This document shows, piece by piece, positions 11,866-44,116 of a stretch of 64,000 nucleotides of DNA. A model generated the notes under the pieces. It did not search any database. It worked only from the letters and a program-made list of their open reading frames with translations, and was not told where the DNA came from. Numbering within the stretch: position 1 is the stretch's first letter; each line of letters starts with the position of its first letter. The translations under genes were made by a program, and so were the position numbers. The DNA lies in the NCBI RefSeq assembly GCF_055900595.2, contig NZ_CM148325.1, one strand, 5' to 3'.

Positions 11866-12882
11866 ATGAGTGCCCACTATTTTAATCCACAAGAGATGAT
11901 CAATAAGACAATCATCTTCGATGAAAGGCCAGAGGCGTCAGTGGCATCATCATTCCATGTTGCTTATGGCATTGATCAGAACTTTCTTTTTGGTTGTGGT
12001 GTTTCAATCACGTCAGTTTTGTTACATAACAACGACGTGAGTTTTGTCTTCCACGTTTTTATTGATGATATCCCTGACGCCGATATCCAGCGTTTATCCC
12101 AATTGGCGAAAAGCTATCATACCTGTATCCAGATCCATCTGGTAAATTGTGAACGGCTTAAGGTATTACCGACGACCAAAAATTGGTCTATTGCCATGTA
12201 TTTCCGTTTTGTAATTGCAGATTACTTTATTGATCAACAAGATAAGATCCTGTACCTGGATGCTGATATCGCCTGTCAGGGAACCTTAAAACCGCTGATA
12301 ACAATGGATCTTGCCAATAACGTTGCTGCTGTTGTTACTGAACGCGATGCTAACTGGTGGTCGTTACGGGCTCAAAGTCTGCAGTGTAATGAACTTGAAA
12401 AGGGTTACTTTAATTCAGGTGTCCTGTTAATTAATACACTAGCGTGGGCGCAGGAGTCCGTTTCTGCTAAAGCGATGTCGATGCTTGCTGATAAAGCCGT
12501 CGTTTCCCGTTTAACCTATATGGATCAAGATATACTAAATCTTATCCTGTTAGGGAAAGTTAAATTCATTGATGCTAAATACAATACGCAATTTAGTTTA
12601 AATTATGAATTAAAAAAATCATTTATTTGTCCAATTAATGATGAAACCGTATTAATTCATTATGTCGGCCCGACAAAACCTTGGCATTACTGGGCCGGTT
12701 ATCCAAGCGCGCAGCCATTTATCAAAGCCAAAGAAGCATCGCCATGGAAAAATGAACCGTTAATGCGGCCAATTAACTCAAATTATGCTCGTTATTGCGC
12801 TAAGCATAATTTTAAACAAAATAAACCAATTAACGGGATAATGAATTATATTTATTATTTTTATTTAAAGATAATAAAATGA
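11866..12882 (+). CDS. waaO: GT8-family LPS alpha-1,3-glycosyltransferase (outer core, WaaO/WaaI-like)
   Basis: GT8 hallmarks (YGIDQNFLFGCGVSI, YLDADI); first gene after waaP as in R1/R4 core loci. Symbol by synteny. Confidence 0.6.
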   Translation: MSAHYFNPQEMINKTIIFDERPEASVASSFHVAYGIDQNFLFGCGVSITSVLLHNNDVSFVFHVFIDDIPDADIQRLSQLAKSYHTCIQIHLVNCERLKVLPTTKNWSIAMYFRFVIADYFIDQQDKILYLDADIACQGTLKPLITMDLANNVAAVVTERDANWWSLRAQSLQCNELEKGYFNSGVLLINTLAWAQESVSAKAMSMLADKAVVSRLTYMDQDILNLILLGKVKFIDAKYNTQFSLNYELKKSFICPINDETVLIHYVGPTKPWHYWAGYPSAQPFIKAKEASPWKNEPLMRPINSNYARYCAKHNFKQNKPINGIMNYIYYFYLKIIK

Positions 12883-12898
12883 CATTGAGAAAAGTTAA

Positions 12899-13894
12899 AT
12901 GAATGAATTTATAAAAGAACGGTTTTCGTATTTAGCAGATAATAAAAAAGAAAACGTCCCAGAGCTAAATGTTTCCTACGGTATCGATAAGAATTTTTTG
13001 TATGGTGCTGGCGTTTCAATTTCTTCCGTTTTGATTAATAATTCAGATATTAATTTTGTCTTTCATGTTTTCACTGATTATGTGGATGATGATTATTTAA
13101 AGTCATTTGATGAAACAGCAAAACAATTTAATACCTCAATTATTGTATATTTAATTGACCCAAAATACTTTGCTGATCTGCCGACGTCACAGTTTTGGTC
13201 GTACGCGACATACTTCAGGGTATTGTCCTTTGAATATCTGAGTGAAAGTATTTCCACACTGCTGTATCTGGATGCCGATGTCGTTTGTAAAGGAAGTCTG
13301 AAACCTCTCACAAAAATTATATTTAAAGATGAGTTTGCTGCGGTTATTCCTGACAATGATAGTACTCAGGCGGCATGTGCAAAACGTCTTAACATTCCCG
13401 AAATGAATGGACGTTATTTCAATGCAGGCGTTATCTATGTCAATCTTAAAAAATGGCATGAAGCAAATTTGACACCGTATTTACTCACGCTTTTACGAGG
13501 GGAAACTAAATATGGCTCTCTTAAATATTTAGATCAGGATGCGTTGAATATCGCATTTAATATGAATAATATCTACCTCGCGAAGGATTTTGATACTATT
13601 TATACCCTGAAAAACGAACTTCATGATCGTAGTCATCGAAAGTATCAGCAAACCATTACCGATAAAACAGTATTGATTCACTATACAGGGATAACTAAAC
13701 CATGGCATAGCTGGGCTGGATATCCGTCTGCATCATACTTTAATATCGCGCGTGAACAATCTCCCTGGAAGAAATATCCTCTTAAAGAGGCGCGGACTGT
13801 TGCAGAAATGCAGAAACAATATAAGCATCTGTTTGCCCATGGTGAGTATATAAAAGGCATAACTTCATTAATTAAGTACAAGCTTAAGAAATAA
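12899..13894 (+). CDS. waaT: GT8-family LPS alpha-1,2-glycosyltransferase (outer core, WaaT/WaaJ-like)
   Basis: GT8 motifs (YGIDKNFLYGAGVSI, YLDADV); second GT8 before waaY. Symbol by synteny. Confidence 0.55.
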   Translation: MNEFIKERFSYLADNKKENVPELNVSYGIDKNFLYGAGVSISSVLINNSDINFVFHVFTDYVDDDYLKSFDETAKQFNTSIIVYLIDPKYFADLPTSQFWSYATYFRVLSFEYLSESISTLLYLDADVVCKGSLKPLTKIIFKDEFAAVIPDNDSTQAACAKRLNIPEMNGRYFNAGVIYVNLKKWHEANLTPYLLTLLRGETKYGSLKYLDQDALNIAFNMNNIYLAKDFDTIYTLKNELHDRSHRKYQQTITDKTVLIHYTGITKPWHSWAGYPSASYFNIAREQSPWKKYPLKEARTVAEMQKQYKHLFAHGEYIKGITSLIKYKLKK

Positions 13895-13903
13895 ATTACT
13901 CTT

Positions 13904-14596
13904 ATGATTACAAGTATACGTTATCGCGGCTTCTCATTTTATTACAAAGATAATGATAATAAATATAAAGAAATCTTTGATGAAATACTGGCCTATAATT
14001 TTAAAACAGTAAAAGTATTACGTAATATTGATGATACCAAAGTATCGTTGATTGATACGAAATATGGTCGCTATGTTTTTAAAGTCTTTGCTCCGAAAAC
14101 GAAAAGGAATGAACGTTTTTTAAAATCTTTTGTAAAAGGTGACTACTATCAGAATTTGATCGTTGAAACCGATCGTGTCAGAAGTGCAGGTCTTACTTTT
14201 CCTAATGATTTTTATTTTCTGGCTGAGCGTAAAATTTTCAACTATGCCAGTGTTTTTATCATGCTTATCGAGTATGTCGAGGGCGTAGAGCTCAATGATA
14301 TGCCGATTATTCCAGAAAATGTTAAAGCAGAAATTAAGGCTTCAATGGAAAAATTGCATGCCTTAAATATGCTATCGGGCGACCCACACCGGGGTAACTT
14401 TATCGTTAGTAAAGATGGTGTCAGGATAATTGACCTATCCGGTAAAAGCTGTACGGCAGAGCGTAAAGCTCGTGATCGTCTGGCCATGGAACGTCACCTG
14501 GGTATTGCCAACGAAATAAAAGATTATGGCTACTATTCAGTAATCTACAGAACCAAACTACGCAAATTTATTAAAAAATTAAAAGGCAAAGCGTAA
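13904..14596 (+). CDS. waaY: LPS core heptose(II) kinase WaaY
   Basis: 230 aa, MITSIRYRGFSFYYKDNDNKYKEIFDEILAYNFKTVKVLRN...; kinase-like with DPHRGNF motif. Confidence 0.85.
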   Translation: MITSIRYRGFSFYYKDNDNKYKEIFDEILAYNFKTVKVLRNIDDTKVSLIDTKYGRYVFKVFAPKTKRNERFLKSFVKGDYYQNLIVETDRVRSAGLTFPNDFYFLAERKIFNYASVFIMLIEYVEGVELNDMPIIPENVKAEIKASMEKLHALNMLSGDPHRGNFIVSKDGVRIIDLSGKSCTAERKARDRLAMERHLGIANEIKDYGYYSVIYRTKLRKFIKKLKGKA

Positions 14597-14621
14597 ACCA
14601 CACAGTCAAAACGGAACCAAC

Positions 14622-15650
14622 ATGGATTTATTAGCTGAGAGTATTACTGAAGTCGCTGTCTCTGGGGAAATTGCTAACACCGATCGTGTGTTAAATATCG
14701 CTTACGGTATTGACCGTAATTTTTTATTTGGTGCGGCAGTATCTATGCAATCAGTTGTTATGCATAACCCAGACCTTGCGGTTAAGTTTCATCTCTTTAC
14801 CGACTACATTGATGAAGATTATCTACAACGTGTTAACGCTTTTACCAGCAAAAATGCTAACGTTGAAGTAAGAATTTATAAAGTCTCCAGTGTCTTTATT
14901 GATATCTTCCCCAGCCTGAAACAGTGGTCTTATGCAACATTCTTCCGTTTAGTTGCGTTCCAGTATCTGAGTGAAACTATTGAAAATCTGTTATATATCG
15001 ATGCTGATGTCATCTGTAAAGGCTCATTAGCTGGATTGCTTGATATTAATTTTGATGGCGATAAATTCGCAGCTGTTATTAAAGATGTGCCTTTTATGCA
15101 GGAAAAACCAGCGAAGCGTCTGGCTATAGAGGGGCTTCCAGGGAATTATTTCAACGCCGGTGTAGTATATCTGCAGCTTGAAGCGTGGGCGAAAAATGAT
15201 TTTATGAATAAAGCCATTGCTATGCTGGCAAGTGACCCGCAGCACACGAAGTATAAATGCCTTGATCAGGATATTTTAAATATTCTGTTCTTTGGTCATT
15301 GTATTTTTATTAGCGGCGATTATGATTGCTTTTATGGCATTGACTATGAGTTAAAAAATAAAAGCGATGAAGATTATAAAAAGACCATTACCGATGATAC
15401 TAAGCTGATTCATTATGTTGGCGTAACGAAGCCCTGGAACGACTGGACGAATTATCCCTGCCAGAAGTATTTTAATGAGGCTTATCAAGCTTCTTGCTGG
15501 AATGATGTGGCGTTTATTCCAGCCACGAATGAAAAACAGTATCAAGTGAAATCCAGACATTTGAAAAGAAATGGTAATATTGCATCTTCATTTTACTATT
15601 TCATGCTCTATTATAGTAAGAAAATAGCGCGTAAGCATTTTTCCAAATAA
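14622..15650 (+). CDS. waaW: GT8-family LPS alpha-1,2-glycosyltransferase (WaaW-like)
   Basis: Third GT8 paralog (YGIDRNFLFGAAVSM, YIDADV) located after waaY as in R1/R4 loci. Confidence 0.5.
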   Translation: MDLLAESITEVAVSGEIANTDRVLNIAYGIDRNFLFGAAVSMQSVVMHNPDLAVKFHLFTDYIDEDYLQRVNAFTSKNANVEVRIYKVSSVFIDIFPSLKQWSYATFFRLVAFQYLSETIENLLYIDADVICKGSLAGLLDINFDGDKFAAVIKDVPFMQEKPAKRLAIEGLPGNYFNAGVVYLQLEAWAKNDFMNKAIAMLASDPQHTKYKCLDQDILNILFFGHCIFISGDYDCFYGIDYELKNKSDEDYKKTITDDTKLIHYVGVTKPWNDWTNYPCQKYFNEAYQASCWNDVAFIPATNEKQYQVKSRHLKRNGNIASSFYYFMLYYSKKIARKHFSK

Positions 15651-15681
15651 TTATTAAGACTAATCATCCAGGGATTTTTTA

Positions 15682-16455
15682 ATGAACTTGCCCATTTATA
15701 TTGTCTCACTTAAAAGAGATATTGAGCGAAGAAATAAAATAAATGATGTCTTTCATCGATTAAACATTAATTTTGATTTTTTTGATGCCATAGATGCTAA
15801 AGATCCTCAAAATAAAGAAATTATTAATGAAATGAGATTAAGTGGTGTCGGCGCAGAAATGACTGATGGAGAAATTGCTTGTACGTTAAGTCATCAGCTT
15901 ATATATCAGGATATGATAGATAAAAATATAGAATGGGCAGTCATTCTAGAGGACGATGTTATCGTCAATGAGAAATTTAAAAATTTCCTTCAATACTTTA
16001 ATCCTTCTGAAAAAGACAAGTTAAAATATAATAATTTGTATTTGCTTGGAGGTCAGAAAGGATTACATGATTATCCAGTATTGGGGCAAAGCCTTTTTAG
16101 TAAAGTTAAGGTAAGTACTTGTATTTTTCGTCGTGTTAATTTTAATAAAAATAAAATTCGTCGTACATGTTCATATTTGATGAATAACGATATGGCACTA
16201 AAGTTGCTCAAATTGACAAAGGATTATGGCACCTATCGAGCTGATAGCTGGAAGTTAATGCATCAACATAATATTATAAAAGATTTTTATTTAGACGAAA
16301 TAATATTACATCCTATTTTAAATGAGTTTAATAGTCACCTTGAAAGTGAAAGGCTTTTAATATCGGAAAAAAAACAACCCAGGACAAGGCTTCAGAAAAA
16401 AATGAAGTTTATACGTTCCTGGATAAAGGTGGCTTTTTTTTCTCTTTTGAAATGA
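15682..16455 (+). CDS. waaX: GT25-family beta-glycosyltransferase (Lic2A/LgtB-like); position of waaX (R4) or waaV (R1)
   Basis: N-terminus MNLPIYIVSLKRDIERRNKIN... resembles GT25 family; lies immediately before waaL. waaX preferred over waaV on remembered family assignment only. Confidence 0.45.
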   Translation: MNLPIYIVSLKRDIERRNKINDVFHRLNINFDFFDAIDAKDPQNKEIINEMRLSGVGAEMTDGEIACTLSHQLIYQDMIDKNIEWAVILEDDVIVNEKFKNFLQYFNPSEKDKLKYNNLYLLGGQKGLHDYPVLGQSLFSKVKVSTCIFRRVNFNKNKIRRTCSYLMNNDMALKLLKLTKDYGTYRADSWKLMHQHNIIKDFYLDEIILHPILNEFNSHLESERLLISEKKQPRTRLQKKMKFIRSWIKVAFFSLLK

Positions 16456-16489
16456 GATTGTTAATTTCAATTTATTGTGAGATATTAAC

Positions 16490-17743
16490 GTGGAAGTAAA
16501 AATTGAGCAATTTCGAAATAATAGCTGTAATTTTATTTTTTTATTATATTTAATCGGTTTGTTGTTTGTGCCAATTGATCTAAATATTACCACTAAAATA
16601 ATTAATGCTACAGGTGCATTTTCTCTTTTTTTATTAATTGTAAATAACAAGCATAATTATAATAAAAATATCATTATATTAATTCTTGGCTTACTTCTTT
16701 TGGGTGCAATGAACCTGATATGGTATGAGTTTTATAAAACAGAAGATGTAGTATATAGAAATGCTTATCGAGGCTATCTTGAGTCTGGAAAACTATTAGT
16801 ATTTAGCTCGTTGACATTTTTATTACTAAGTAAAAATAAATTCAGGCAAAATGAAAAGCTACATTTTATTTCAGCTATCTTAGTTCAAATAATCATGCTA
16901 TGTAGAGCATATTATCAAGGGATATATTTGCATGCAGACCGCATTCCCCTCTCCGCCATGAATGGGAATATTGGTCAGATGGGGGCAGCGACTATTGCGG
17001 CTTATGTGATTACATTCACTACTTTATATTCTTCAATTGTATTCATCAAAATGCAATCGAAATATAAATGGTTTCTATTTTATGCTAACTTTGCTTTAAG
17101 CTTTGCAGCAGTAATGATGACAGGAACGCGTGCGGCAATTTTCACATTCCCACTTATGATTATGGTCATATTATTTCTTCAGCATCGTGATCAAAAAGTG
17201 TTTTTATTTAAAGGATTGAGTGGTGTTTTTATATTGCTACTTGCTTGTGGTTTGATATTTAATAAGGAAATTGAGAGGCGAATTAATTCATTAAAAGCTG
17301 ATGTTATTTCATATGCTACAAAAAATAACAGTCAATCCTCGGTCGGAGCACGTTTTGCAATGGTTAATGCAGGAATTAAAGGAAGTCCTGATGGTTTTAA
17401 TTGGCAATCTCTTGAGCAGCGTGCTGAAAAGATAAAAGCATTAAGTGCAGAAAATAATATTTATAGTGGAGCTTTATTATTCCTTGATGTACATATGCAT
17501 AATGAAATTGTTGAAGCTCTTTCCACGAAAGGGAAAATTGGTCTTCTTGTTCTTATTATGTTCTATGTTGCAATGATCTACTACTGTATCCGGGAGAAAA
17601 AATATATACTTTTGGTTTTCCCTGCTTCTATTATGTTATTTGGCATTAGTGATGTCATTACGCATGCTAAACCAATACCGGCATCGTGGATTGTGTGCCT
17701 CTTCCTGTCTATATCGTTTTTGAGTAAAAAAGAACCACAATAA
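16490..17743 (+). CDS. waaL: O-antigen ligase WaaL
   Basis: 417-aa polytopic membrane protein, AT-rich, last gene of the waaQ operon; GTG start. Confidence 0.8.
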   Translation: MEVKIEQFRNNSCNFIFLLYLIGLLFVPIDLNITTKIINATGAFSLFLLIVNNKHNYNKNIIILILGLLLLGAMNLIWYEFYKTEDVVYRNAYRGYLESGKLLVFSSLTFLLLSKNKFRQNEKLHFISAILVQIIMLCRAYYQGIYLHADRIPLSAMNGNIGQMGAATIAAYVITFTTLYSSIVFIKMQSKYKWFLFYANFALSFAAVMMTGTRAAIFTFPLMIMVILFLQHRDQKVFLFKGLSGVFILLLACGLIFNKEIERRINSLKADVISYATKNNSQSSVGARFAMVNAGIKGSPDGFNWQSLEQRAEKIKALSAENNIYSGALLFLDVHMHNEIVEALSTKGKIGLLVLIMFYVAMIYYCIREKKYILLVFPASIMLFGISDVITHAKPIPASWIVCLFLSISFLSKKEPQ

Positions 17744-36135: not shown

Positions 36136-36376
36136 TGCAGGTCTCCTGCAGTCCACACACGCCGCGTGATGAGTCTGTTGCTCATCTCCGTGTCACACGT
36201 TGTGTAAAAGTGGCACTGCCAATTGTGTTGTGTAGGGATAATGACAATGAATAGTTAACTAAATGTTATGCATTGGCAACATTGATGTGAGTTTTAATTG
36301 GGGAACTGTGAACCAGAGGTCAGATAAGCGAAGAATTGGTAGGGCCAATTTGGAGTGAGGGAGATGTCTGTAAAGA

Positions 36377-36408
36377 AAAGGGCAATTCCCATCAGGGAAT
36401 TGCCCTCA
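36377..36408 (-). terminator. hairpin (gggcaattccc / gggaattgccc) downstream of the adhesin gene
   Basis: Perfect 11-bp inverted repeat, followed on the minus strand by a T-rich tract (cttttcttt). Confidence 0.5.
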
Positions 36409-36435
36409 GATTGTTGATCTGGTGCGCCTTATTTT

Positions 36436-36520
36436 GCCGGATGCGGCGTGAACGCCTTATCCGTCCTACAGGAATGTGCTGAATCATCCCGTAGGTCTGA
36501 TAAGCGCAGCGCATCACGCA
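36436..36520. repeat. REP/BIME element
   Basis: gccggatgcggcgtgaacgccttatccgtcctac and gtaggtctgataagcgcagcgcatcacgc. Confidence 0.7.
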
Positions 36521-36551: not shown

Positions 36552-39500
36552 TTACCACTGAATACCGGCACCGAGTGCGGCGGAGTATTCACCCTGGCTA
36601 TTGGTACTACCTTGTAATTTGTAGACCCAACGACCATTGGCGCTCACCATCGACACACCTAAAGCAACAGCCGATTCGCCGTTGTAAGTACCACCACCAA
36701 TAGAGGCCATGCTGGCTCCCGGCGTGTAAGCCTGCGGCAGACCGGTCATTGCCATTGCGGAAGCGATACCACCGCTCAACTTGCTTTCGGTTTTGGACAG
36801 TTTGTTATCCATCTCAACCATGCGCTGATCGGTGTATTGCTTCGTTTCCTGCACACTTTGCTTCAACTGTGCATAGTTCACTGCGTCGTTGTTGTTCACG
36901 CCCGCAGAAACGTTGCTGATGCGAGTCGTACCGCCATTGCCGCCACCGAGAGTGATGTTGCTGTAGTCGATAGAGCCATCAGCTTTGGTGTCGTAGCGAA
37001 CGCCACCTGCTTCGGAAGACTTCAGTTGCGAAACGTTAACCGCATCGGTGGCATTAACACCGGCAGCAACGTTGGTGATACGGCGCTGGTTGGTAGAAGA
37101 ACCCACAGAGATTGTGTTTTCTTCGTTGGCCACGGAGCCTGTACCCAGAGCGACGCTGTTGTCAGCGGCAGCAATGGATCCAGAACCAATCGCCACACTG
37201 TCTTTACCCTGGGCGTTAGCATCTACGCCATCGGTGTTGGTCTTGAAGTACTTGGTGCTACCTGTGGTTACGATATCGCCAATACCGTTCTCGATATTGG
37301 TCACGCGAGTATCCAGATTCGTCACCTGATTGTTCAGGTTAGTAATGCTCTGGGTATTCTGGGAAACCTGCGCATCCGTTACTTTCAATTGACCCACGTT
37401 GACCGCATCGGTATCAGCCGAACCAGCCGCGACGTTGGTGATCTGACGTTGACCGTCTTCGCTACCTACGGAGAATTCACCCACAGAGTTCTGCGGTGCA
37501 TCCATGTTGTAGGCGGTGTAGCCAGTTTGTGCGCCACGGGTAGTTTGAGAACCATTACCCATTGCAATGCTGTTTGCATGGTTTGCACGCGCGTTGCTAC
37601 CGATAGCAATACCGTTAATCGCATCTGCCAGAACTAAAGTGTTCAGGCCGATACCAATACCTGCATTACCATTAACGATGGTTTTTGCGCCCATTGCCAG
37701 CGAGTCTTCACCGATTGCCAGTGAGTCTTCAGCCGTTGAATTGGCGTGATAGTATTTGGTTGGCGTGGTGGCTACTGCACCAATGGCATTCTGCAACTGG
37801 CGAACCGTAACGGCGTCATGGGCTTCAGAACCATCGGCAACATTGATGATTTGACGATATTTACCATCGTCACCGATCGACAATGCGCCAAGCAGTTCAC
37901 CGTCAGTTGTGTCATAACCAATCACAACACCTTCTTCCGATACGCTGGTGTCACGAGAACCTTTAACTATTAAACGGCTGGAAACGGAACTGCTACCCAG
38001 AGCGATACCTGTATCAACGTTGCTGTAACTGTCCTGACCGATGGCTACACTGCTGGCACGAGAGGCAACAGCGTTATAACCCACAGCGGTAGCACCAATA
38101 CCTGAAGCGCTGGCATCGTTGAATGCTAAGCCGTTGTCGTTGGTACGCACATAGTTAATACCCGCGCCATTTTCTTCGATGTAGGTTTCACTGGTGTTAC
38201 CGGCAAGCTGATTGATGACTTCGCTGTTCTGCTGGATCAGCATATTGGTGTTAAACAGCTGAGAACCGTTCACTGCATCGGTGCTACCTTCACCAATGTT
38301 ACCATCAGCAACGTTTGTGATAATGCTGGCCTTGCCGTCATGACTGGCGTTGTAAGCCCCTTCGCCGTTATTGGCGGTCGCATCCCACAGCAGCGCGTTC
38401 TCATCAAGCGCATCCAGAGCGTCACCGACATTGTTGTACTCGGCATTCGCAATGGTGTAAGTCGGCGCAGTGATAGTACCGTCAGCGTTAACTTCTGCAT
38501 CACCGCCCAGAGCATCTGCGATATATTTATTAGTGGTATAGAGTTGTGAGCCGTTAATCGCGTCGCTGCTGGTGGCAGAGATTGCACCATTTGCGACGTT
38601 AGTAATCTTACTGGCAGTGTTATCTACCCCACGACCGGCGCTGAATGCACCAGCACCGTCATTGGCTGTTGCATCCCAGAGCAGGGCGTCATCCAGTGTG
38701 GTATCGATCGCTTCCAGTGCGTCACCAACGTTGCTGTAACTGCCGCCAGCGATGGCATAAGTCGGTGTGGTGATACTGCCGTCCGCATTCACCACAGCGT
38801 TCCCGCCCAGAGCATCGGCAATGTAGTCACTAACGCCATAAAGTTGAGAACCATTAATAGCGTCGCTACTGGTGGATGAGACTGCACCGTTTGCAACATC
38901 AGTGATTACACTGGGATCATTATTAATGCCGTGTTTGGCGCTGAATTTGCCTGCGGTTGTATCCCAGAGCAGAGCATCACCGAGAGAATCACTAAATGAA
39001 GTGTTAATCGCAGCCAGAGCATCCCCGACGCTAGTGTAGTCAGTGCCGCCAATACTATAGGTTGGCCCGGTTAATATACCTGTATCGCTAATATCAGCCC
39101 CACCACCCAGATAGGACGTGAATGAATCAGCCAAACCGTAAAGTTGTGAGCCATTAATGGCGTCAGTGCTGTCAGAGGAGACTATGCCAGCTTGTACGTT
39201 GCTGATTTTGTTGGCGGCGTTAGTGCCGTGTGCAGCGGTGAATGCGCCTGCGGCGTCGTCCCATTTCAGGGCGTCTTCACCGAGGTTAGTCACCGTATCA
39301 GTCAGGTTAGTGATATTGGTGGTGTTGGTCGCCACATCGTCCTTGGTCGCTTTCAGCTGAGAACCATTAACGGCGTCGGTGCTGGTGTCAGAGAGCTCGC
39401 CAGCGGTGACGTTAGTGATTTTGTTGGTGGCGTTGGTGCCGTGTGCAGCGGTGAATGCGCCTGCGGCATCGTCCCATTTCAGGGCGTCTTCACCGAGGTT

Positions 39501-41363
39501 AGTCACCGTATCAGTCAGGTTAGTGATGTTGGTGGTGTTAGTTGCCACGTTATCGTTAGTGGTTTTCAACTGAGAACCGTTAACGGCGTCGGTGCTGGTG
39601 TCAGAGAGCTCGCCAGCGGTGACGTTAGTGATTTTGTTGGTGGCGTTGGTGCCGTGTGCAGCGGTGAATGCGCCTGCGGCATCGTCCCATTTCAGGGCGT
39701 CTTCACTAAGGTCAGTCACCGTATCAGTCAGGTTAGTGATATTGGTGGTGTTGGTCGCCACATCGTCCTTGGTCGCTTTCAGCTGAGAACCATTAACGGC
39801 GTCGGTGCTGGTGTCAGAGAGCTCGCCAGCGGTGACGTTAGTGATTTTGTTGGTGGCGTTGGTGCCGCGTGCAGCGGTGAATGCGCCTGCGGCATCGTCC
39901 CATTTCAGGGCGTCTTCACCGAGGTTAGTCACCGTATCAGTCAGGTTAGTGATATTAGTGGTGTTGCCAGCCACTTCGCTCGTCAGGTTAGTGATGTTGG
40001 TGGTGTTTGCCGCCACATCGTCCTTGGTCGCTTTCAGCTGAGAACCGTTGACGGCGTCGGTGCTGGTGTCAGAGAGGTCGCCAGCGGTGACATTGGTGAT
40101 TTTGCTAGTGGCGTTGTTGCCATGGGCAGCGCTGTATTTGCCATTGGTTTGGTCCCATTGCAGAGTGTTTTCATCAAGTACAGTGAGCGCATCGCCAACG
40201 TTATTTTTGTTACCATTTTTTAAGTTGTAGGCGGGGGCTTTAACTGTACCGTCGTCAACGTTTACCGATGCGCCTCCACCCAGTCGTTTTGCTACCGAGT
40301 CGCTGATGGCATAAAGCTGCGAGCCATTAATGGCGTCATTGCTGTCAGCTTTGATGGTGCCATTTTTCACATTCACGATCTTGCGTTTTAATGAGTCATT
40401 ACCGACAGAAACGCTATCGTCCAGATCCGCAATCGAACCTGCCCCCAACGCGACGGCGTTAATACCGTTGGCGCTGGTATTACTACCAAGCGCAAGACTA
40501 TTATCGCCCGTGACAACACTGGTTTTACCTAAAGCAATAGAGTTTAAGCCACTCGATTGGCTACCATTACCCAGAACGATAGCATCTGTACCATTAGCTT
40601 TGTTGCCCTGACCTATGGCAATTTCGCTATCTGCCAAAGCCTGGCTGCCATTGCCCAATACGATAGTATTGGTTTTATCGGCAAGGCTCCCGGAGCCCAG
40701 CGCCATGCTATTAGTCCCTTTTGCCTTCGCATTATTGCCAATGGCGGTAGCATTTTCAGCGGCTTCGGTGTTAGTGCCCATCGCGATGGAGTCCGTTCCT
40801 GATGCATTTGCCAATCGTCCTAATGCAAGAGCATTAGCAGCACTTGCTACCGTATCTTTGCCCAACGCCATGGCACCTTCACCTTTAGCTTGAGCAGAAT
40901 TCCCCAGTGCAAGTGTATAATCGCTGGTCGCTTTAGCTGCACTGCCGATGGCGATAGCTCGGCTGCCCGTTGATACCGTTGATTGCCCTAAGCCAACCGA
41001 TCTTTCTCCTGATGAGTTACTTGAGAAGCCAATTGCCGTACTGCCCACCCCGGCGGTCGAACCTATTCCTACCGCAACACTTCCTGTATTCTCTGTTCCT
41101 GAACCCTTTGGCTCTGATGATGCGACAGCACCTTTACCAATGGCAATCCAGTCATTACTGAGTGGCGTTGCCTCTGCGCTTTTACCACCGTCAAGTGAAA
41201 CCGAAGCATTGGCCCCAACGGGTGAGAGTAGCCCACCCGCAACCAGCGCGGAAATTAACAGCTTACTACGCCCGCTCTTTTTTCCACGACTCTTCGCCGT
41301 TTCGCTGGCAACGCTATAGCTGCCCGTCGCTGGATTCCAGATAACTTTAAAAATTTTGTTCAT
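36552..41363 (-). CDS. trimeric autotransporter adhesin (YadA-like; UpaG/EhaG/SadA family), 1603 aa
   Basis: N-terminal extended signal peptide [21 protein letters not shown]...; long repetitive Ser/Thr/Asn/Gly-rich passenger with NGSQL-type head/neck motifs; C-terminal YadA-type anchor ending ...[36 protein letters not shown]. Confidence 0.85.
39166..40060. repeat. tandem array of about 4 copies of a 213-bp (71-aa) unit inside the adhesin gene
   Basis: Plus-strand artefact ORFs start at 39379, 39592 and 39805 (213-nt spacing) with near-identical translations; the adhesin shows repeated [71 protein letters not shown] blocks. Confidence 0.85.
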
Positions 41364-41406
41364 TATTGATGTTCTCTATTCCTTGATATAAGCGCAGAAG
41401 CTGCAT

Positions 41407-42090
41407 TTATTTTTTGTTTTTCCGCTGCTGAGTTTCAGCAGGTTGAACAGTGTCGAACTGGAGATTGGCCATATTGATGGACAATTTCAGATACTTCAGG
41501 TTATTAGGTGAAACGCCTTTTAATGTCAGGTTAATGTCTTGCCATTGACCAGGCATTAATTGCAGGGTGGAGTTCATGGTGGTGTTGAAAAGTAATTGTT
41601 GCCACTTCGACAGCGCTTTGGTATCGGTGGGTCTTTCACTGCCCCATGTGGCTTGAAAGCCAATATTTGATACGGGAACGCTTAATAGGTTGACCAGCGA
41701 AATACGAATAACGCTACCATTTTCAACTGCATCAATAGACAGCACCCGGCCTGCCAAACCAACCGAGCCATTGTTTAAAATGAAGTATTTTGTTTGTGCA
41801 GGGTTAAATTCGGTGAAGACAAATTCGTCCTGTTTGTCTTTGACCGCCTTTACTACACCCGCCAGCACTTTAGTGGTGTTTGCAATATTAATTTGTTGAT
41901 TTTCAATAAATTCTATCTTTCTTTTATATTGTTCTTGTTGTTTTTCAAGAATCTCTATTTTACTTTTTTGCAATTCTTGCTGTTTGGCAAGATCGTCGAT
42001 CAGATTCGCTTTCTCAATATAGTCACACCCAGTCAATACCCAGAGTGGCAATGTTATCAACATGCTTAATAGTGCTTTTTTGATGCTCAT
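41407..42090 (-). CDS. SadB-like inner-membrane lipoprotein encoded immediately upstream of the adhesin
   Basis: Signal peptide with LTGC lipobox and Asp at +2 (CD, inner-membrane retention); coiled-coil-like QQELQKSKIEILEKQQEQYKRKIEFIENQQ; ends 44 nt upstream of the adhesin start on the same strand. Confidence 0.65.
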   Translation of the reverse strand: MSIKKALLSMLITLPLWVLTGCDYIEKANLIDDLAKQQELQKSKIEILEKQQEQYKRKIEFIENQQINIANTTKVLAGVVKAVKDKQDEFVFTEFNPAQTKYFILNNGSVGLAGRVLSIDAVENGSVIRISLVNLLSVPVSNIGFQATWGSERPTDTKALSKWQQLLFNTTMNSTLQLMPGQWQDINLTLKGVSPNNLKYLKLSINMANLQFDTVQPAETQQRKNKK

Positions 42091-42662
42091 AGGGTGAATT
42101 CCTTTTCATGATCCCGATACGTTAACTGTTACGGCGTAATCATCCTTTTTATGAATGATTCGAGTGGAAATATACGTTATATAAATTTATAAGAGACTTT
42201 TTCTATTAATTGTTGTATTAATTGGTAGTGCGAATATGACATTAAATGTCAGACAATTTCAGATTGTAGCCAATAATATTAATCGCGCGGATTTTAATGA
42301 TCGATGTCAATCAATGTCAAATGTTTCACCGGATGAAAACACCGACCAGGAGAAATATTAATATTCAGCATGGTGATGTTTTCTTGGGAAGTGTGTGATT
42401 CTGAGCGATAAATATAAATAATTAATGGCTGTTACAGGCATTAATGTGCATTAATTCATTGTTATCGCTTATATATCACTTTTTTATTCCATACCACAAT
42501 TTCAGAATTTAGCCTGTAATATGCGCTTCAAAGAGCCGGTGAGATGGAAGCAATAGTGATAAGAATGTTAAAGATATCCGATATCTGGTATCAGGCTCCT
42601 GCATGTGCCAGCAGGAGCGAGTAAATCGTGAGAGGCTGTGATTACAGCGGTGAGACAGGTAC

Positions 42663-43025
42663 TTAAAATGCGGTCTTAGAGAATCCGGTCATCTCTTGCA
42701 GGCCCATTTCGCGGCCCAGCGCGGTCATCGGATGCACAACTACCAGTCCGCGAACACTTTTCTTCAGCTTGCCCATATCAGCCTGCTCTTTTTTAGTAAT
42801 CGCGCGCTGGAAGGGCATTTTCATCAGTTTTTGCGCTTCTTTACTGAGTTTCTGGCTGTGAACTTCACGCAGGCGAGCAATTTCGGCTTCCAGCGTGGCT
42901 TTTTCTTTTTCCAGTTCGGCATATTTATCTGCGGCTTCAACCAGTGACAGGTCAGCCTGCTGATGGCGGATAGCGTCCAGGCGATCGCTGAGACGTTTGA
43001 TTTCGTTTTTTTCGACTTCTTTCAT
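42663..43025 (-). CDS. yibL: DUF2810-family protein YibL
   Basis: 120 aa, [42 protein letters not shown]... Confidence 0.85.
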
Positions 43026-43308
43026 GTGATGACTTCTGATAGAGATAAATTTATAGCCTCTAGTATGCGCGACCAGGTGCTTTGTTCACAACAGATGGCA
43101 TTGTAATAGTTCCAGATTGTAACCATTAATGTGTTTGAAAATTACCCAATCTATTGATTAATTAGGAAATTTAAAGAAAAAAGATAGACAACAGAAGAGG
43201 ATCATTATTGAGGATTGAGCACGTTTTCCTTAATGTCATTTATACCGGGATCTAAACTAAAATTGGCGGCCGCGCATTCCCGACGCGGGGTAATACGGAG
43301 ATATCATC

Positions 43309-43518
43309 ATGGGCAAATTAGGTGAAAACGTTCCGCTTCTTATCGATAAAGCTGTAGATTTCATGGCATCGAGCCAGGCGTTCCGGGAGTATCTGAAAAA
43401 ACTTCCTCCCCGCAATGCGATTCCGTCCGGAATACCTGATGAAAGCGTGCCGTTATATCTACAACGTCTGGAGTATTATCGTCGGCTTTATCGGCCGAAA
43501 CAGGTAGAGGAGAAGTAA
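43309..43518 (+). CDS. yibT: small protein YibT (69 aa)
   Basis: [31 protein letters not shown]...; position between yibL and mtlR. Confidence 0.7.
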
Positions 43519-43528
43519 GCGAAAGTAC

Positions 43529-44116
43529 TTACTTTTGAAAGGCTTTTTTTAAGCTGATTTTGGAAATCAGCTCTGTCAGTGAAAGGACCATTGTTGATCG
43601 CACAGCCTGTTGGTAACGCTGAATTTGCATTGCATACAAACTGGAGTCTGCGGGTTCAAACTGTGGCGGCGGTGGTAACGCCGCCACACAGTGCAGCTCA
43701 CCAAAGGGGCCAAGAATTTCGTCGTCGGTAAAGGCGTACTCATTGCCGTCGTGATTTAGTTCTTCACGCAATGCCATCAGCAGTTCCGCATCTTCGTATT
43801 CATGGCGGTTAATGACACCCAACCCGTAAATGAGTTTTAAACGCACAGAAAGATCGCCCAGCGGGCCATCGCCGTCGAGTAACGGTTCTACAGCATACTT
43901 CACCGCGTAATCGTCTTTGCGGAATACCTGAAGCACCAGAAGATTTACCGCCTCGGTCAAAAGCTCGACGGCGGTAATCAGAAAGCTTCGCACGGTTTTG
44001 CCAGCATTCAGACGCTCAAGCACACGGTTTTCAAAGGCCTGGGTTTGTTCCATTGTTGCCTGCATATCTGACAATCTGTTATTCGGGCGCAGGGAGTCCT
44101 GCGCCTGGTCCACCAT
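43529..44116 (-). CDS. mtlR: mannitol operon repressor MtlR
   Basis: 195 aa, [43 protein letters not shown]... Confidence 0.92.
   Translation of the reverse strand: MVDQAQDSLRPNNRLSDMQATMEQTQAFENRVLERLNAGKTVRSFLITAVELLTEAVNLLVLQVFRKDDYAVKYAVEPLLDGDGPLGDLSVRLKLIYGLGVINRHEYEDAELLMALREELNHDGNEYAFTDDEILGPFGELHCVAALPPPPQFEPADSSLYAMQIQRYQQAVRSTMVLSLTELISKISLKKAFQK

What the first reader, a model, noticed from the sequence alone, without database searches (positions are those of the whole stretch)
42091..42662. Long AT-rich, non-coding leader upstream of the lipoprotein-adhesin operon
About 570 bp with no convincing ORF, very AT-rich with A/T tracts and short palindromes, lies directly upstream of the lipoprotein gene. 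This is the type of region typically bound by H-NS and could hold a silenced or conditionally expressed promoter for the adhesin operon. The only small ORF with an SD (MVMFSWEVCDSER, about 42380-42420) looks incidental.
Basis: inference. Interest (0 to 1): 0.35.

Follow-up and report, generated by a model that had tools for sequence, protein, structure and literature searches.

The report
Control region of an adhesin operon
This AT-rich 572-base gap is the ordinary control region of an E. coli surface-adhesin operon already reported to be repressed by H-NS; it holds one strongly conserved promoter, a long untranslated leader and one conserved upstream motif of unknown function.

Summary
Window 42091-42662 is a 572-bp gap with no conserved ORF. 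GC is 33% over 42091-42590, against 50% for the whole window.

All the relevant genes are on the minus strand. The gap lies between yibL (42663-43025) and a SadB-family lipoprotein gene (41407-42090). That gene is followed 43 bp later by a UpaG/EhaG-type trimeric autotransporter (36552-41363). This is the known mtl-yibL-sadBA/upaG-lld locus of E. coli.

- **Promoter:** comparison with 11 other lineages shows almost nothing conserved except a near-consensus sigma-70 promoter. It reads TTGACA-18-TAAAAT at 42320-42291, minus strand. It predicts a start near 42284 and a leader of about 194 nt.
- **Distal box:** a motif [A/T]TC[T/C]GAAA at 42500-42508 always lies 172-186 bp upstream of the -35.
- **yibL end:** the yibL-proximal 71 bp carry a terminator-like hairpin.
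- **H-NS:** Only about one third of the gap is predicted leader, and A-tracts are neither in excess nor phased.
- **No hidden element:** I found no RNA family, no stable RNA fold and no conserved small ORF.
- **Allele:** this sequence version is rare, found in 28 of 5426 complete E. coli genomes.

Ordinary and largely already known; low interest.

The parts
42663..43025 (-). yibL (DUF2810, ribosome-associated protein), the upstream co-directional neighbour
   Evidence: Pfam DUF2810, E=6e-32. Annotated yibL in strain EC42405, whose gap sequence is identical.
42592..42662 (-). yibL-proximal block of 71 nt, GC 0.56. It is conserved among E. coli alleles A, B and C. It is absent from K-12 and from the O157-type allele.
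   Evidence: Alignment A1 shows near identity up to column 121, after which divergence jumps. The K-12 and O157 sequences differ from the first base after the yibL stop.
42595..42618 (-). Terminator-like hairpin GCUCCUGC-UGGCACAU-GCAGGAGC at the yibL 3' end. It has no U-run in this allele.
   Evidence: The 111-nt fold gives -27.2 kcal/mol, z=-3.1. The stem is invariant in E. coli alleles. Pseudocitrobacter vendiensis has one compensatory change in the closing pair, C-G to U-A. The simple terminator scan did not call it because there is no T-run.
42499..42514 (-). Distal conserved box GGCTAAATTCTGAAAT, with core A.TC.GAAA at 42500-42508. Function unknown; candidate protein-binding site.
   Evidence: The core is invariant in 10 representative lineages. 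It is present in 12 of 12 aligned sequences at 172-186 nt upstream of the -35 and in P. corydidari at 179 nt. The chance of the 9-mer occurring anywhere in such a gap is about 0.06 per sequence. It is lost in P. cyperus, whose gap is 382 nt.
42315..42320 (-). -35 hexamer TTGACA
   Evidence: Promoter scan scores 11 of 12. TTTGAC is invariant in all 13 sequences. A hit of 11/12 or better arises in 4% of dinucleotide shuffles.
42291..42296 (-). -10 hexamer TAAAAT with an 18-nt spacer. It is followed by a GC-rich discriminator, CCGCGCG.
   Evidence: The pattern ATTA..AT is invariant across lineages, as TAAAAT, TAGAAT or TAGCAT. The same promoter is the best sense-strand hit in O157 and E. fergusonii and the top hit overall in UPEC 536; in the Salmonella-labelled allele it ties with an antisense hit.
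42091..42284 (-). Predicted 5' untranslated leader of about 194 nt. The start is inferred 7-8 nt after the -10, at about 42283-42284.
   Evidence: This is inferred from promoter geometry. The -35 to ATG distance is 219-239 nt in all 12 lineages. The fold is no more stable than shuffles, z=+1.0. The consensus structure is weak at -8.1 kcal/mol with no covariation bonus.
42256..42271 (-). Promoter-proximal copy of the box, GGCTACAATCTGAAAT, at about +14 to +29. It is part of a 27-nt direct repeat with the distal box, spaced 243 nt apart.
   Evidence: Repeat family D1, 85% identity. The pattern was found only at these two places with 0 mismatches in 64 kb. It is partly conserved across lineages, as CTACAA.CTGAAA.
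42276..42281 (-). Second -10-like hexamer TAATAT at about +4 to +9, near-invariant across lineages
   Evidence: A434, T435 and A436 are invariant and T432 and A433 are at least 90% conserved in alignment A4. Function not tested.
42138..42160 (-). Sequence-conserved inverted repeat in the leader, AATCATTC-N7-GGATGATT
   Evidence: Hairpin appears in both the MFE and centroid folds. The helix is kept in 8 alignable sequences but almost without variation, so it is uninformative.
42100..42104 (-). Shine-Dalgarno AAGGA, 9 nt before the ATG at 42090
   Evidence: Read from the sequence. AAGG is conserved in nearly all lineages.
41407..42090 (-). SadB-family (DUF3251) inner-membrane lipoprotein gene, first gene of the operon
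   Evidence: ORF. It is 96% identical to proteins named DUF3251. The orthologous position is annotated DUF3251. SadB function is described in PMC3953254.
36552..41363 (-). UpaG/EhaG/SadA-type trimeric autotransporter adhesin, 43 nt downstream of the lipoprotein gene
   Evidence: Pfam ESPR, YadA_head, YadA_stalk and YadA_anchor. The orthologue is annotated ehaG in O157.

Best explanation
The 572-bp gap is the regulatory region of the sadB-like/upaG-type adhesin operon, with the 3' end of yibL attached.

Reading along the minus strand:
1. The yibL transcript ends at or near a conserved GC-rich hairpin (42595-42618).
2. About 270 bp of fast-evolving AT-rich DNA follow. They contain one conserved box, A.TC.GAAA (42500-42508).
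3. Next comes a near-consensus sigma-70 promoter, TTGACA-18-TAAAAT (42320-42291), which starts transcription near 42284.
4. An unstructured AT-rich leader of about 194 nt runs to the SD/ATG of the lipoprotein gene.

The promoter sits in the middle of an AT-rich tract of about 800 bp (roughly 41800-42590). The most likely mode of control is silencing by H-NS. H-NS would coat or bridge the DNA on both sides of the promoter so that RNA polymerase is excluded or trapped. Expression would then need relief of silencing by a condition or factor that is still unknown.

- **Shown here:** the anatomy, the composition, and the conservation of the promoter and the box.
- **Taken from the literature:** H-NS repression of the orthologous UpaG and EhaG, and lack of expression of the native operon in culture.
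- **Inferred:** the start site, H-NS binding to this allele, and any role of the box.
For: - **Gene context:**
- **Positional orthology:** the locus matches upaG (UPEC 536), ehaG (O157) and the sadBA architecture described in PMC3953254.
- **Composition:** GC is 0.33 against 0.50 for the window.
- **Promoter strength:** 11 of 12 matches, the only sense-strand hit in the gap. Such a hit occurs in 4% of shuffles.
- **Promoter conservation:** the -35 and -10 are the only invariant blocks across 13 sequences. These include E. fergusonii, E. albertii, a Salmonella-labelled allele, O157 and Pseudocitrobacter. The same promoter is re-found independently in four other alleles.
- **Conserved geometry:** the -35 to ATG distance is 219-239 nt, and the box to -35 distance is 172-186 nt.
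- **H-NS-like motifs:** TCGWTWAATT with up to 2 mismatches occurs 9 times in the gap, against about 1.9 expected from the window average.
- **Literature:** H-NS is listed as repressor of UpaG (PMC5012682). Native sadBA expression conditions are unknown and SadA is not made in culture (PMC3953254).
- **No competing element:** 0 Rfam hits at E<=1, no conserved ORFs, and no stable or covarying RNA fold.
Against: - No experimental start site or H-NS occupancy data for this allele, or for any allele, could be read here. The primary paper (Totsika 2012) is not in the library.
- A/T tracts are not over-represented and not phased, so there is no sequence sign of intrinsic curvature.
- The enrichment of H-NS-like motifs is largely what AT-richness alone produces.
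- This allele shares only 67-80% identity with alleles B and C, and little beyond the promoter core and distal box aligns with the O157 ehaG-type gap. Regulation could therefore differ.
- The 18-nt spacer and GC-rich discriminator could make the promoter weaker than its hexamers suggest.
Confidence: 0.7

Rival explanations
1. A dedicated, still unidentified DNA-binding regulator is the main control. It would bind the conserved distal box (42500-42508), and possibly its promoter-proximal copy (42256-42271). It could act as an activator or anti-silencer, or as a looping repressor. H-NS would be secondary. This idea is compatible with the best explanation and is not exclusive of it.
For: - The box core is invariant in 10 lineages inside DNA that is otherwise unalignable.
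- Its distance to the -35 is fixed at 172-186 nt in 13 sequences.
- A 27-nt direct repeat links it to a second copy just downstream of the predicted start.
- The inducing condition of the operon is unknown.
Against: - The box matched none of about 30 E. coli regulator consensus sequences that I could recall and scan.
- The proximal copy is only partly conserved outside E. coli.
- P. cyperus has lost the distal part of the gap, including the box, and keeps the operon.
- No protein partner is known.
Confidence: 0.3
2. Control is mainly post-transcriptional. The long leader would act as an RNA thermometer, an sRNA target or a translation-blocking structure. For example, the AGGA of the SD could pair with the UCCU/CCCU just before the AUG.
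For: - Leader length is conserved at about 190-205 nt.
- The 3' 70 nt of the leader are well conserved.
- The consensus fold pairs the SD and the AUG in a small hairpin.
Against: - The fold is no better than shuffles, z=+1.0.
- The consensus structure is only -8.1 kcal/mol and the covariation term is unfavourable.
- The pairs around the SD do not vary, so they say nothing either way.
- No Rfam family matches.
- In the single-sequence fold the SD lies in a loop.
Confidence: 0.1
3. The promoter is simple and essentially unregulated. The AT-richness and length of the gap would only reflect the history of a recombining, horizontally exchanged adhesin module.
For: - The gap exists as at least four deeply divergent allele classes in E. 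coli and is deleted in K-12-type genomes.
- Divergence begins sharply at about 42591.
- There is no curvature signature.
Against: - Published hns-mutant effects on the orthologues.
- The native operon is silent in culture despite a near-consensus promoter.
- The conserved distal box and the conserved spacing argue for selection on regulatory architecture.
Confidence: 0.1
4. The gap encodes a small protein or a small RNA of its own.
For: - Several ORFs of 20-41 codons are present.
- One 22-codon TTG ORF (42242-42310, minus strand) stays open in all E. coli-type alleles, including across two 3-nt indels.
Against: - All other ORFs are broken in the other alleles.
- The 22-codon ORF has no SD, starts upstream of the predicted transcription start, and coincides with the promoter core, which explains its conservation.
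- No Rfam hit.
- No strong sense-strand promoter other than the operon's.
Confidence: 0.03

Closest known systems
upaG (UPEC CFT073/536) and ehaG (EHEC O157:H7) promoter regions, reported as H-NS-repressed (Totsika et al. 2012, cited in PMC5012682)
   Same: - Same chromosomal position (mtlR-yibT-yibL | gap | DUF3251 lipoprotein | trimeric autotransporter | lldP).
- Same gap length class (500-572 bp) and the same GC (0.33-0.36).
- Same promoter at the same distance from the ATG, and the same distal box.
   Different: - The sequence is only 76-80% identical to the UPEC-type gap.
- It is essentially unalignable with the O157-type gap outside the promoter core and the box.
- This allele is rare, in 28 of 5426 complete genomes.
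- It carries an allele-specific excess of ATTAAT.
Salmonella sadBA operon (Grin et al. 2014, PMC3953254)
   Same: [quoted passage not shown]
- The operon sits between the mtl and lld operons.
- The native inducing conditions are unknown.
   Different: - The SadB paper did not analyse the promoter.
- The only Salmonella-labelled sequence I could fetch (L013) is a minor variant (14 member sequences), not the mainstream serovar Typhimurium gene.
Other H-NS-silenced adhesin promoters of E. coli (UpaC, UpaH, F9 fimbriae, as listed in PMC5012682)
   Same: A surface-adhesin operon with an AT-rich upstream region that is poorly expressed in culture.
   Different: No A-tract excess or phasing was found here. 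No binding data exist for this allele.
lldPRD promoter with paired LldR operators O1/O2 (the neighbouring operon)
   Same: - Two related sequence boxes flank a promoter, one upstream and one just downstream of the start.
- A 17-mer with 2 mismatches to the LldR operator lies at 42220-42236.
   Different: - The conserved boxes here have a different sequence.
- The LldR-like 17-mer is not conserved in the other alleles.
- Matches to the operator pattern (up to 3 mismatches) are no more frequent in the window than in shuffles (22 observed, 17 expected).

Membership tests
Regulatory region of the sadBA / upaG / ehaG operon (positional orthologue) | Lies between yibL and a SadB-family (DUF3251) lipoprotein gene, which is followed by a trimeric autotransporter, between the mtl and lld operons | tested here: met
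   Architecture as described in PMC3953254.
Regulatory region of the sadBA / upaG / ehaG operon (positional orthologue) | Lipoprotein and adhesin genes form an operon (gap of about 44 bp) | tested here: met
   The gap is 43 nt, 41364-41406. Co-transcription itself was not tested.
Sigma-70 promoter | -35 and -10 hexamers close to consensus with a 16-18 nt spacer, in the sense orientation upstream of the gene | tested here: met
   TTGACA-18-TAAAAT scores 11 of 12. Such a hit occurs in 4% of shuffles.
Sigma-70 promoter | Conserved at the orthologous position in diverged relatives | tested here: met
   The hexamers are invariant in 13 sequences. The promoter is re-found in 4 other alleles.
Sigma-70 promoter | Mapped transcription start site | not testable with these tools
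   No transcript data. The start near 42284 is inferred from geometry.
H-NS-silenced (xenogeneic-silencing type) promoter region | AT content well above the genome average over several hundred bp spanning the promoter | tested here: met
   GC is 0.33 over 42091-42590 and 0.33-0.34 into the gene, against 0.50 for the window.
H-NS-silenced (xenogeneic-silencing type) promoter region | High-affinity H-NS motifs (tCGATAAATT-like; the consensus is recalled from Lang et al. 2007) | tested here: inconclusive
   There are 9 matches with up to 2 mismatches in 572 bp, against about 1.9 expected from the window average. None is a perfect match, the positions are not conserved, and the enrichment follows from AT-richness.
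H-NS-silenced (xenogeneic-silencing type) promoter region | Intrinsic curvature or phased A-tracts | tested here: not met
   There are 7 tracts against 8.3 expected, and no 10-11 nt periodicity. Curvature is common in such regions but is not obligatory for H-NS targets.
H-NS-silenced (xenogeneic-silencing type) promoter region | H-NS occupancy and derepression in an hns mutant | not testable with these tools
   Reported for the orthologues UpaG and EhaG (PMC5012682 citing Totsika 2012). The primary paper is not held. No data exist for this allele.
Cis-regulatory RNA in the leader (riboswitch, thermometer) | Match to a described RNA family | tested here: not met
   0 Rfam matches at E<=1 over 41000-44000.
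Cis-regulatory RNA in the leader (riboswitch, thermometer) | Stable fold and covariation | tested here: not met
   z=+1.0. The consensus fold is -8.1 kcal/mol with covariation term +0.78.
Intrinsic terminator (for yibL) | GC-rich hairpin conserved with compensatory change | tested here: met
   An 8-bp stem at 42595-42618, with regional z=-3.1. There is one C-G to U-A compensatory pair in Pseudocitrobacter.
Intrinsic terminator (for yibL) | U-run directly after the hairpin | tested here: not met
   The tail is CUGAUACC in this allele and CUGUUUCA in allele B. The terminator scan finds none.
LldR/PdhR (GntR-type) operator | 17-bp palindrome AATTGGC-N3-RCCAATT, conserved among alleles | tested here: not met
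   The site has 2 mismatches at 42220-42236. The half-site is mutated in two of the three B alleles examined and is poorer in all distant lineages.
Small-protein gene | ORF with an SD, kept open in relatives | tested here: not met

The most novel reading that the evidence does not exclude
The invariant distal box A.TC.GAAA lies 172-186 bp upstream of the -35. Together with its partial copy at +14 to +29, it could be the operator pair of an unidentified regulator. That regulator would set the still unknown inducing condition of SadA/UpaG/EhaG-type adhesins across Escherichia, Pseudocitrobacter and a Salmonella-labelled relative. It could work by looping or by countering H-NS.
Probability: 0.25. 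Interest if true: 0.45.

Novelty: already known. Interest (0 to 1): 0.2.

Why it matters
UpaG, EhaG and SadA are adhesins and biofilm factors of pathogenic E. coli and Salmonella. The SadB paper read here states that their natural inducing conditions are unknown.

This analysis gives concrete targets for experiments. It places the operon's promoter at 42291-42320 and predicts a leader of about 194 nt. It also identifies one short distal box, and a proximal copy, that selection has kept while the rest of the gap diverged.

Beyond that, the region is an expected example of an AT-rich, probably H-NS-silenced adhesin promoter. It does not change current understanding.

Tried and rejected
- **Rfam** scan with permissive thresholds over 41000-44000: nothing.
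- **RNA structure of the leader:** not stable and no covariation.
- **LldR/PdhR operator idea,** prompted by ACCAATT near the lld operon: 2 mismatches, pattern matches no more frequent in the window than in shuffles, and not conserved. Rejected as probable chance.
- **Scan of about 30 regulator consensus sequences recalled from memory,** with a check for conservation at the aligned position. Only degenerate AT-rich motifs (Fis, IHF, Nac) and an FNR-like TTGAT-N4-ATCGA inside the promoter spacer appeared. None explains the distal box.
- **A-tract excess or phasing as a curvature proxy:** absent.
- **Sigma-32, sigma-54 or extended -10 readings of the distal box and hairpin:** checked by eye. The spacings do not fit.
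- **Genome-contig scan with the lipoprotein:** returned only 5 close relatives.
- **Second protein search** with the Salmonella-labelled homologue: returned the same set, so the mainstream Salmonella Typhimurium sadB upstream region was not obtained.
- **Papers not held:** Totsika 2012, Valle 2008 and Raghunathan 2011.
- **Searches for locus tags and H-NS data sets:** gave nothing useful.

Full report
**What is at the coordinates**

Window 42091-42662 is a 572-bp gap between two minus-strand genes. The gene at higher coordinates, 42663-43025, encodes a 120-aa DUF2810 protein (E=6e-32), which is yibL. The gene at lower coordinates, 41407-42090, encodes a 227-aa lipoprotein with an LTGC lipobox. 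It is 96% identical to proteins named DUF3251.

Forty-three bases after the lipoprotein gene comes a 1603-aa protein at 36552-41363. It has ESPR, YadA_head, YadA_stalk and YadA_anchor domains, so it is a trimeric autotransporter adhesin. Further on lie mtlR, mtlD and mtlA on one side and lldP and lldR on the other.

This is the E. coli locus that carries upaG in uropathogenic strains and ehaG in O157:H7. It has the architecture of the Salmonella sadBA operon, in which the lipoprotein SadB helps display the adhesin SadA (PMC3953254). The gap sequence is 100% identical to E. coli EC42405 (bovine) and R32_14_1F (goat).

**Checking the observation**

- **Composition.** GC is 0.358 for the gap and 0.33 for 42091-42590, against 0.498 for the window. 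The yibL-proximal 72 nt (42591-42662) are GC 0.556. Only 6.3% of 572-nt windows are as AT-rich, and nearly all of those lie in a separate AT-rich island at about 12.3-17.4 kb. The AT-rich tract extends into the first ~300 nt of the lipoprotein gene.
- **A/T tracts.** They are not more frequent than composition predicts (7 observed, 8.3 expected). AA/TT shows no helical phasing.
- **Palindromes.** Six-nt palindromes are enriched (23 observed, 10.6 expected). The excess is mainly ATTAAT, 7 observed against 0.68 expected. This enrichment is peculiar to this allele, with 0-3 copies in the others.
- **ORFs.** ORFs of 20-41 codons exist, but the homologous stretches in other alleles are broken by stops or frameshifts.
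It is at 42370-42411 on the plus strand. Its AGGAG lies 18 nt from the ATG, and the ATG is missing in the common allele.

**Population picture**

- **Allele A (this one).** Among 5426 complete E. coli genomes, only 28 carry this version of the gap at 97% identity or more.
- **Alleles B and C.** The next best matches drop abruptly to 79.6%. About 1840 genomes carry versions at 76-80% (allele B, including UPEC 536 and IHE3034) or about 67% (allele C).
- **Allele D.** A fourth version, in O157:H7 and Shigella, is found in 2267 genomes. It is too diverged for blastn to link it to this one.
- **No gap at all.** The remaining roughly 1290 genomes lack the gap. In K-12 MG1655 the sequence differs from the first base after the yibL stop. 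What follows yibL there is the REP element and hairpin/T-run terminator that lie downstream of the adhesin gene in this window, at about 36375-36500. The whole module, including this gap, is therefore deleted in K-12, as PMC3953254 describes.
- **Shared yibL-proximal block.** Alleles A, B and C share the 71 nt next to yibL almost unchanged. Divergence starts sharply at about 42591.

**Phylogenetic footprint**

I aligned the gap, in the sense orientation, with 12 other sequences. These comprised three B alleles, a C allele and a near-identical copy from a metagenome bin, a cryptic-clade Escherichia, E. coli SCPM-O-B-8794 and Pseudocitrobacter vendiensis. The set also held a Salmonella-labelled allele, E. 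fergusonii, the Shigella/O157 type and E. albertii. Mean column identity is about 62-64% and most of the gap is unalignable between the distant lineages. Two elements stand out.

1. **A promoter.** TTTGAC and ATTA..AT are invariant. In this window they read TTGACA (42320-42315), an 18-nt spacer, and TAAAAT (42296-42291).
   - This is the only sense-strand hit of the promoter scan, at 11 of 12 matches.
   - A hit that good arises in 4% of dinucleotide shuffles of the gap.
   - The same promoter is the best sense-strand hit when O157 and E. fergusonii are scanned on their own, and the top hit overall in UPEC 536. In the Salmonella-labelled allele it ties at 10 of 12 with an antisense hit.
   - In alignment A4, 17 of the 36 invariant gap columns fall in the 57 nt spanning the promoter.
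   - The predicted start is about 42283-42284, after a GC-rich discriminator (CCGCGCG). That gives a leader of about 194 nt. The -35 to ATG distance is 219-239 nt in every lineage.
2. **A distal box.** The core is A.TC.GAAA at window 42500-42508, within GGCTAAATTCTGAAAT.
   - It is invariant in 10 representative lineages.
   - It is present in all 12 sequences examined at 172-186 nt upstream of the -35, and in P. corydidari at 179 nt.
   - The 9-mer is expected anywhere in such a gap with probability of about 0.06 per sequence.
   - P. cyperus has a shortened 382-nt gap and has lost it.
   - In this window the box is one arm of a 27-nt direct repeat. The other arm (42253-42279) lies just downstream of the predicted start. 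That proximal copy is only partly conserved in distant lineages.

Lesser conserved patches are a TAATAT at about +4 to +9, an inverted repeat in the leader (42138-42160), and the SD region.

**What it is not**

- Rfam gives no match at E<=1.
- The leader folds no better than shuffled sequence, z=+1.0.
- Its consensus structure over eight alignable sequences is weak (-8.1 kcal/mol) and has an unfavourable covariation term.
- A 17-mer resembling the LldR operator (42220-42236, 2 mismatches) caught my eye, because the true LldR O1 and O2 lie 6 kb away in front of lldP (36334-36350 and 36208-36224). Matches to the operator pattern are no more frequent in the window than in shuffles, and the half-site is mutated in two of the three B alleles examined.
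- A scan with about 30 regulator consensus sequences recalled from memory found nothing both specific and conserved, and nothing that explains the distal box.

**The yibL end**

The conserved 71-nt block carries an 8-bp GC-rich hairpin at 42595-42618. The region folds with z=-3.1. Pseudocitrobacter keeps the stem through a compensatory C-G to U-A change.

There is no U-run after the hairpin. It is therefore terminator-like but not a canonical intrinsic terminator. Some read-through from yibL toward the adhesin promoter cannot be excluded.

**How it most likely works**

A promoter this close to consensus would be expected to be active. [quoted passage not shown] PMC5012682 lists UpaG among UPEC autotransporters repressed by H-NS, citing Totsika et al. 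2012. From my own memory of that abstract, both EhaG and UpaG increase in hns mutants. I could not read the paper.

The promoter is embedded in about 800 bp of 33-34% GC DNA. H-NS-like motifs are about five times denser there than the window average, as expected for such composition. The best-supported model is H-NS silencing of a strong promoter, with filaments or bridges across upstream and downstream AT-rich DNA. Relief would come from an unknown signal.

The conserved distal box, with its fixed spacing, is a good candidate for the site of a specific factor, either an anti-silencer or a looping repressor. This is inference only.

**Comparison with what is known, and verdict**

The region is the positional orthologue of the upaG/ehaG/sadBA regulatory region and behaves as a typical AT-rich adhesin promoter region.
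- Everything is on the minus strand.
- Only about one third of the gap is predicted leader.
- There is no A-tract signature.

The allele is rare and diverged, but the kind of element and the locus are known. The only new items are the placement of the promoter and the conserved distal box. Both are modest, testable leads toward the unknown regulation of this adhesin family. Interest is low, about 0.2.

Noticed in passing
window 36375-36500 (minus strand) and L004 4029-4160: The REP element and hairpin/T-run terminator downstream of the adhesin gene are the sequence that directly follows the yibL stop in K-12 MG1655. The K-12 deletion therefore runs from the base after the yibL stop to about 60 nt past the adhesin stop, and K-12 yibL now uses the former adhesin terminator.
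   Followed up: partly
window 42091-42662: The palindrome ATTAAT occurs 7 times (0.68 expected by shuffling) in this allele, but only 0-3 times in the other alleles. ATGTCA/TGACAT occurs 4 times, including a perfect 15-nt palindrome TGACATTTAATGTCA (minus-strand reading) at 42237-42251.
   Followed up: partly
window 42220-42236; 36334-36350; 36208-36224: A 17-mer with 2 mismatches to the LldR operator lies in the predicted leader. The genuine LldR O1 (0 mismatches) and O2 (1 mismatch) lie upstream of lldP. The leader site is not conserved in other alleles and is probably chance.
   Followed up: yes
window 42301-42314: An FNR/CRP-type half-palindrome TTGAT-TGAC-ATCGA (1 mismatch to TTGAT-N4-ATCAA) lies inside the promoter spacer, centred about 23 nt upstream of the predicted start. 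It is kept only in the E. coli-like alleles.
   Followed up: partly
window 42276-42281: A second -10-like hexamer, TAATAT, lies at about +4 to +9 and is nearly invariant in 10 lineages. It could be a sigma-70 pause element or part of an operator. Untested.
   Followed up: no
window 42242-42310 (minus strand): A 22-codon ORF starting at TTG stays open with the same stop in all E. coli-type alleles, including across two 3-nt indels. It overlaps the promoter core, has no SD, and starts upstream of the predicted transcription start.
   Followed up: partly
window about 12300-17400: A second, much larger AT-rich island (572-nt windows with GC of 0.37 or less) accounts for nearly all other AT-rich windows in the 64 kb.
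   Followed up: no
L001 7316-8000; L018 1853-1861: Two strains carry defects in the lipoprotein gene. In EC42405 PGAP marks it as frameshifted, although its gap sequence is identical to the window. The window's own copy is intact, so the window comes from a different strain. In O157:H7 strain SS TX 754-1 the gene has a TAG at codon 3.
   Followed up: partly
L003 (E. coli 24AR0376): In this genome yibL is followed by an IS1 and a chaperone-usher fimbrial operon in place of the lipoprotein-adhesin module. Only about 110 nt of the yibL-proximal part of the gap remain.
   Followed up: no
window 39150-40250: Inside the adhesin gene, short ORFs recur every 213 nt (39379, 39592, 39805 on the plus strand; 39353, 39566, 39779 on the minus strand). 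GC skew is also strongly positive there. This indicates tandem 71-residue stalk repeats.
   Followed up: no
L019 (Pseudocitrobacter cyperus) 1119-1500: The gap is shortened to 382 nt. It keeps TTGACA-N18-TAAAAT and the CGCGCG discriminator but lacks the distal box, so the box is dispensable in at least one lineage.
   Followed up: partly
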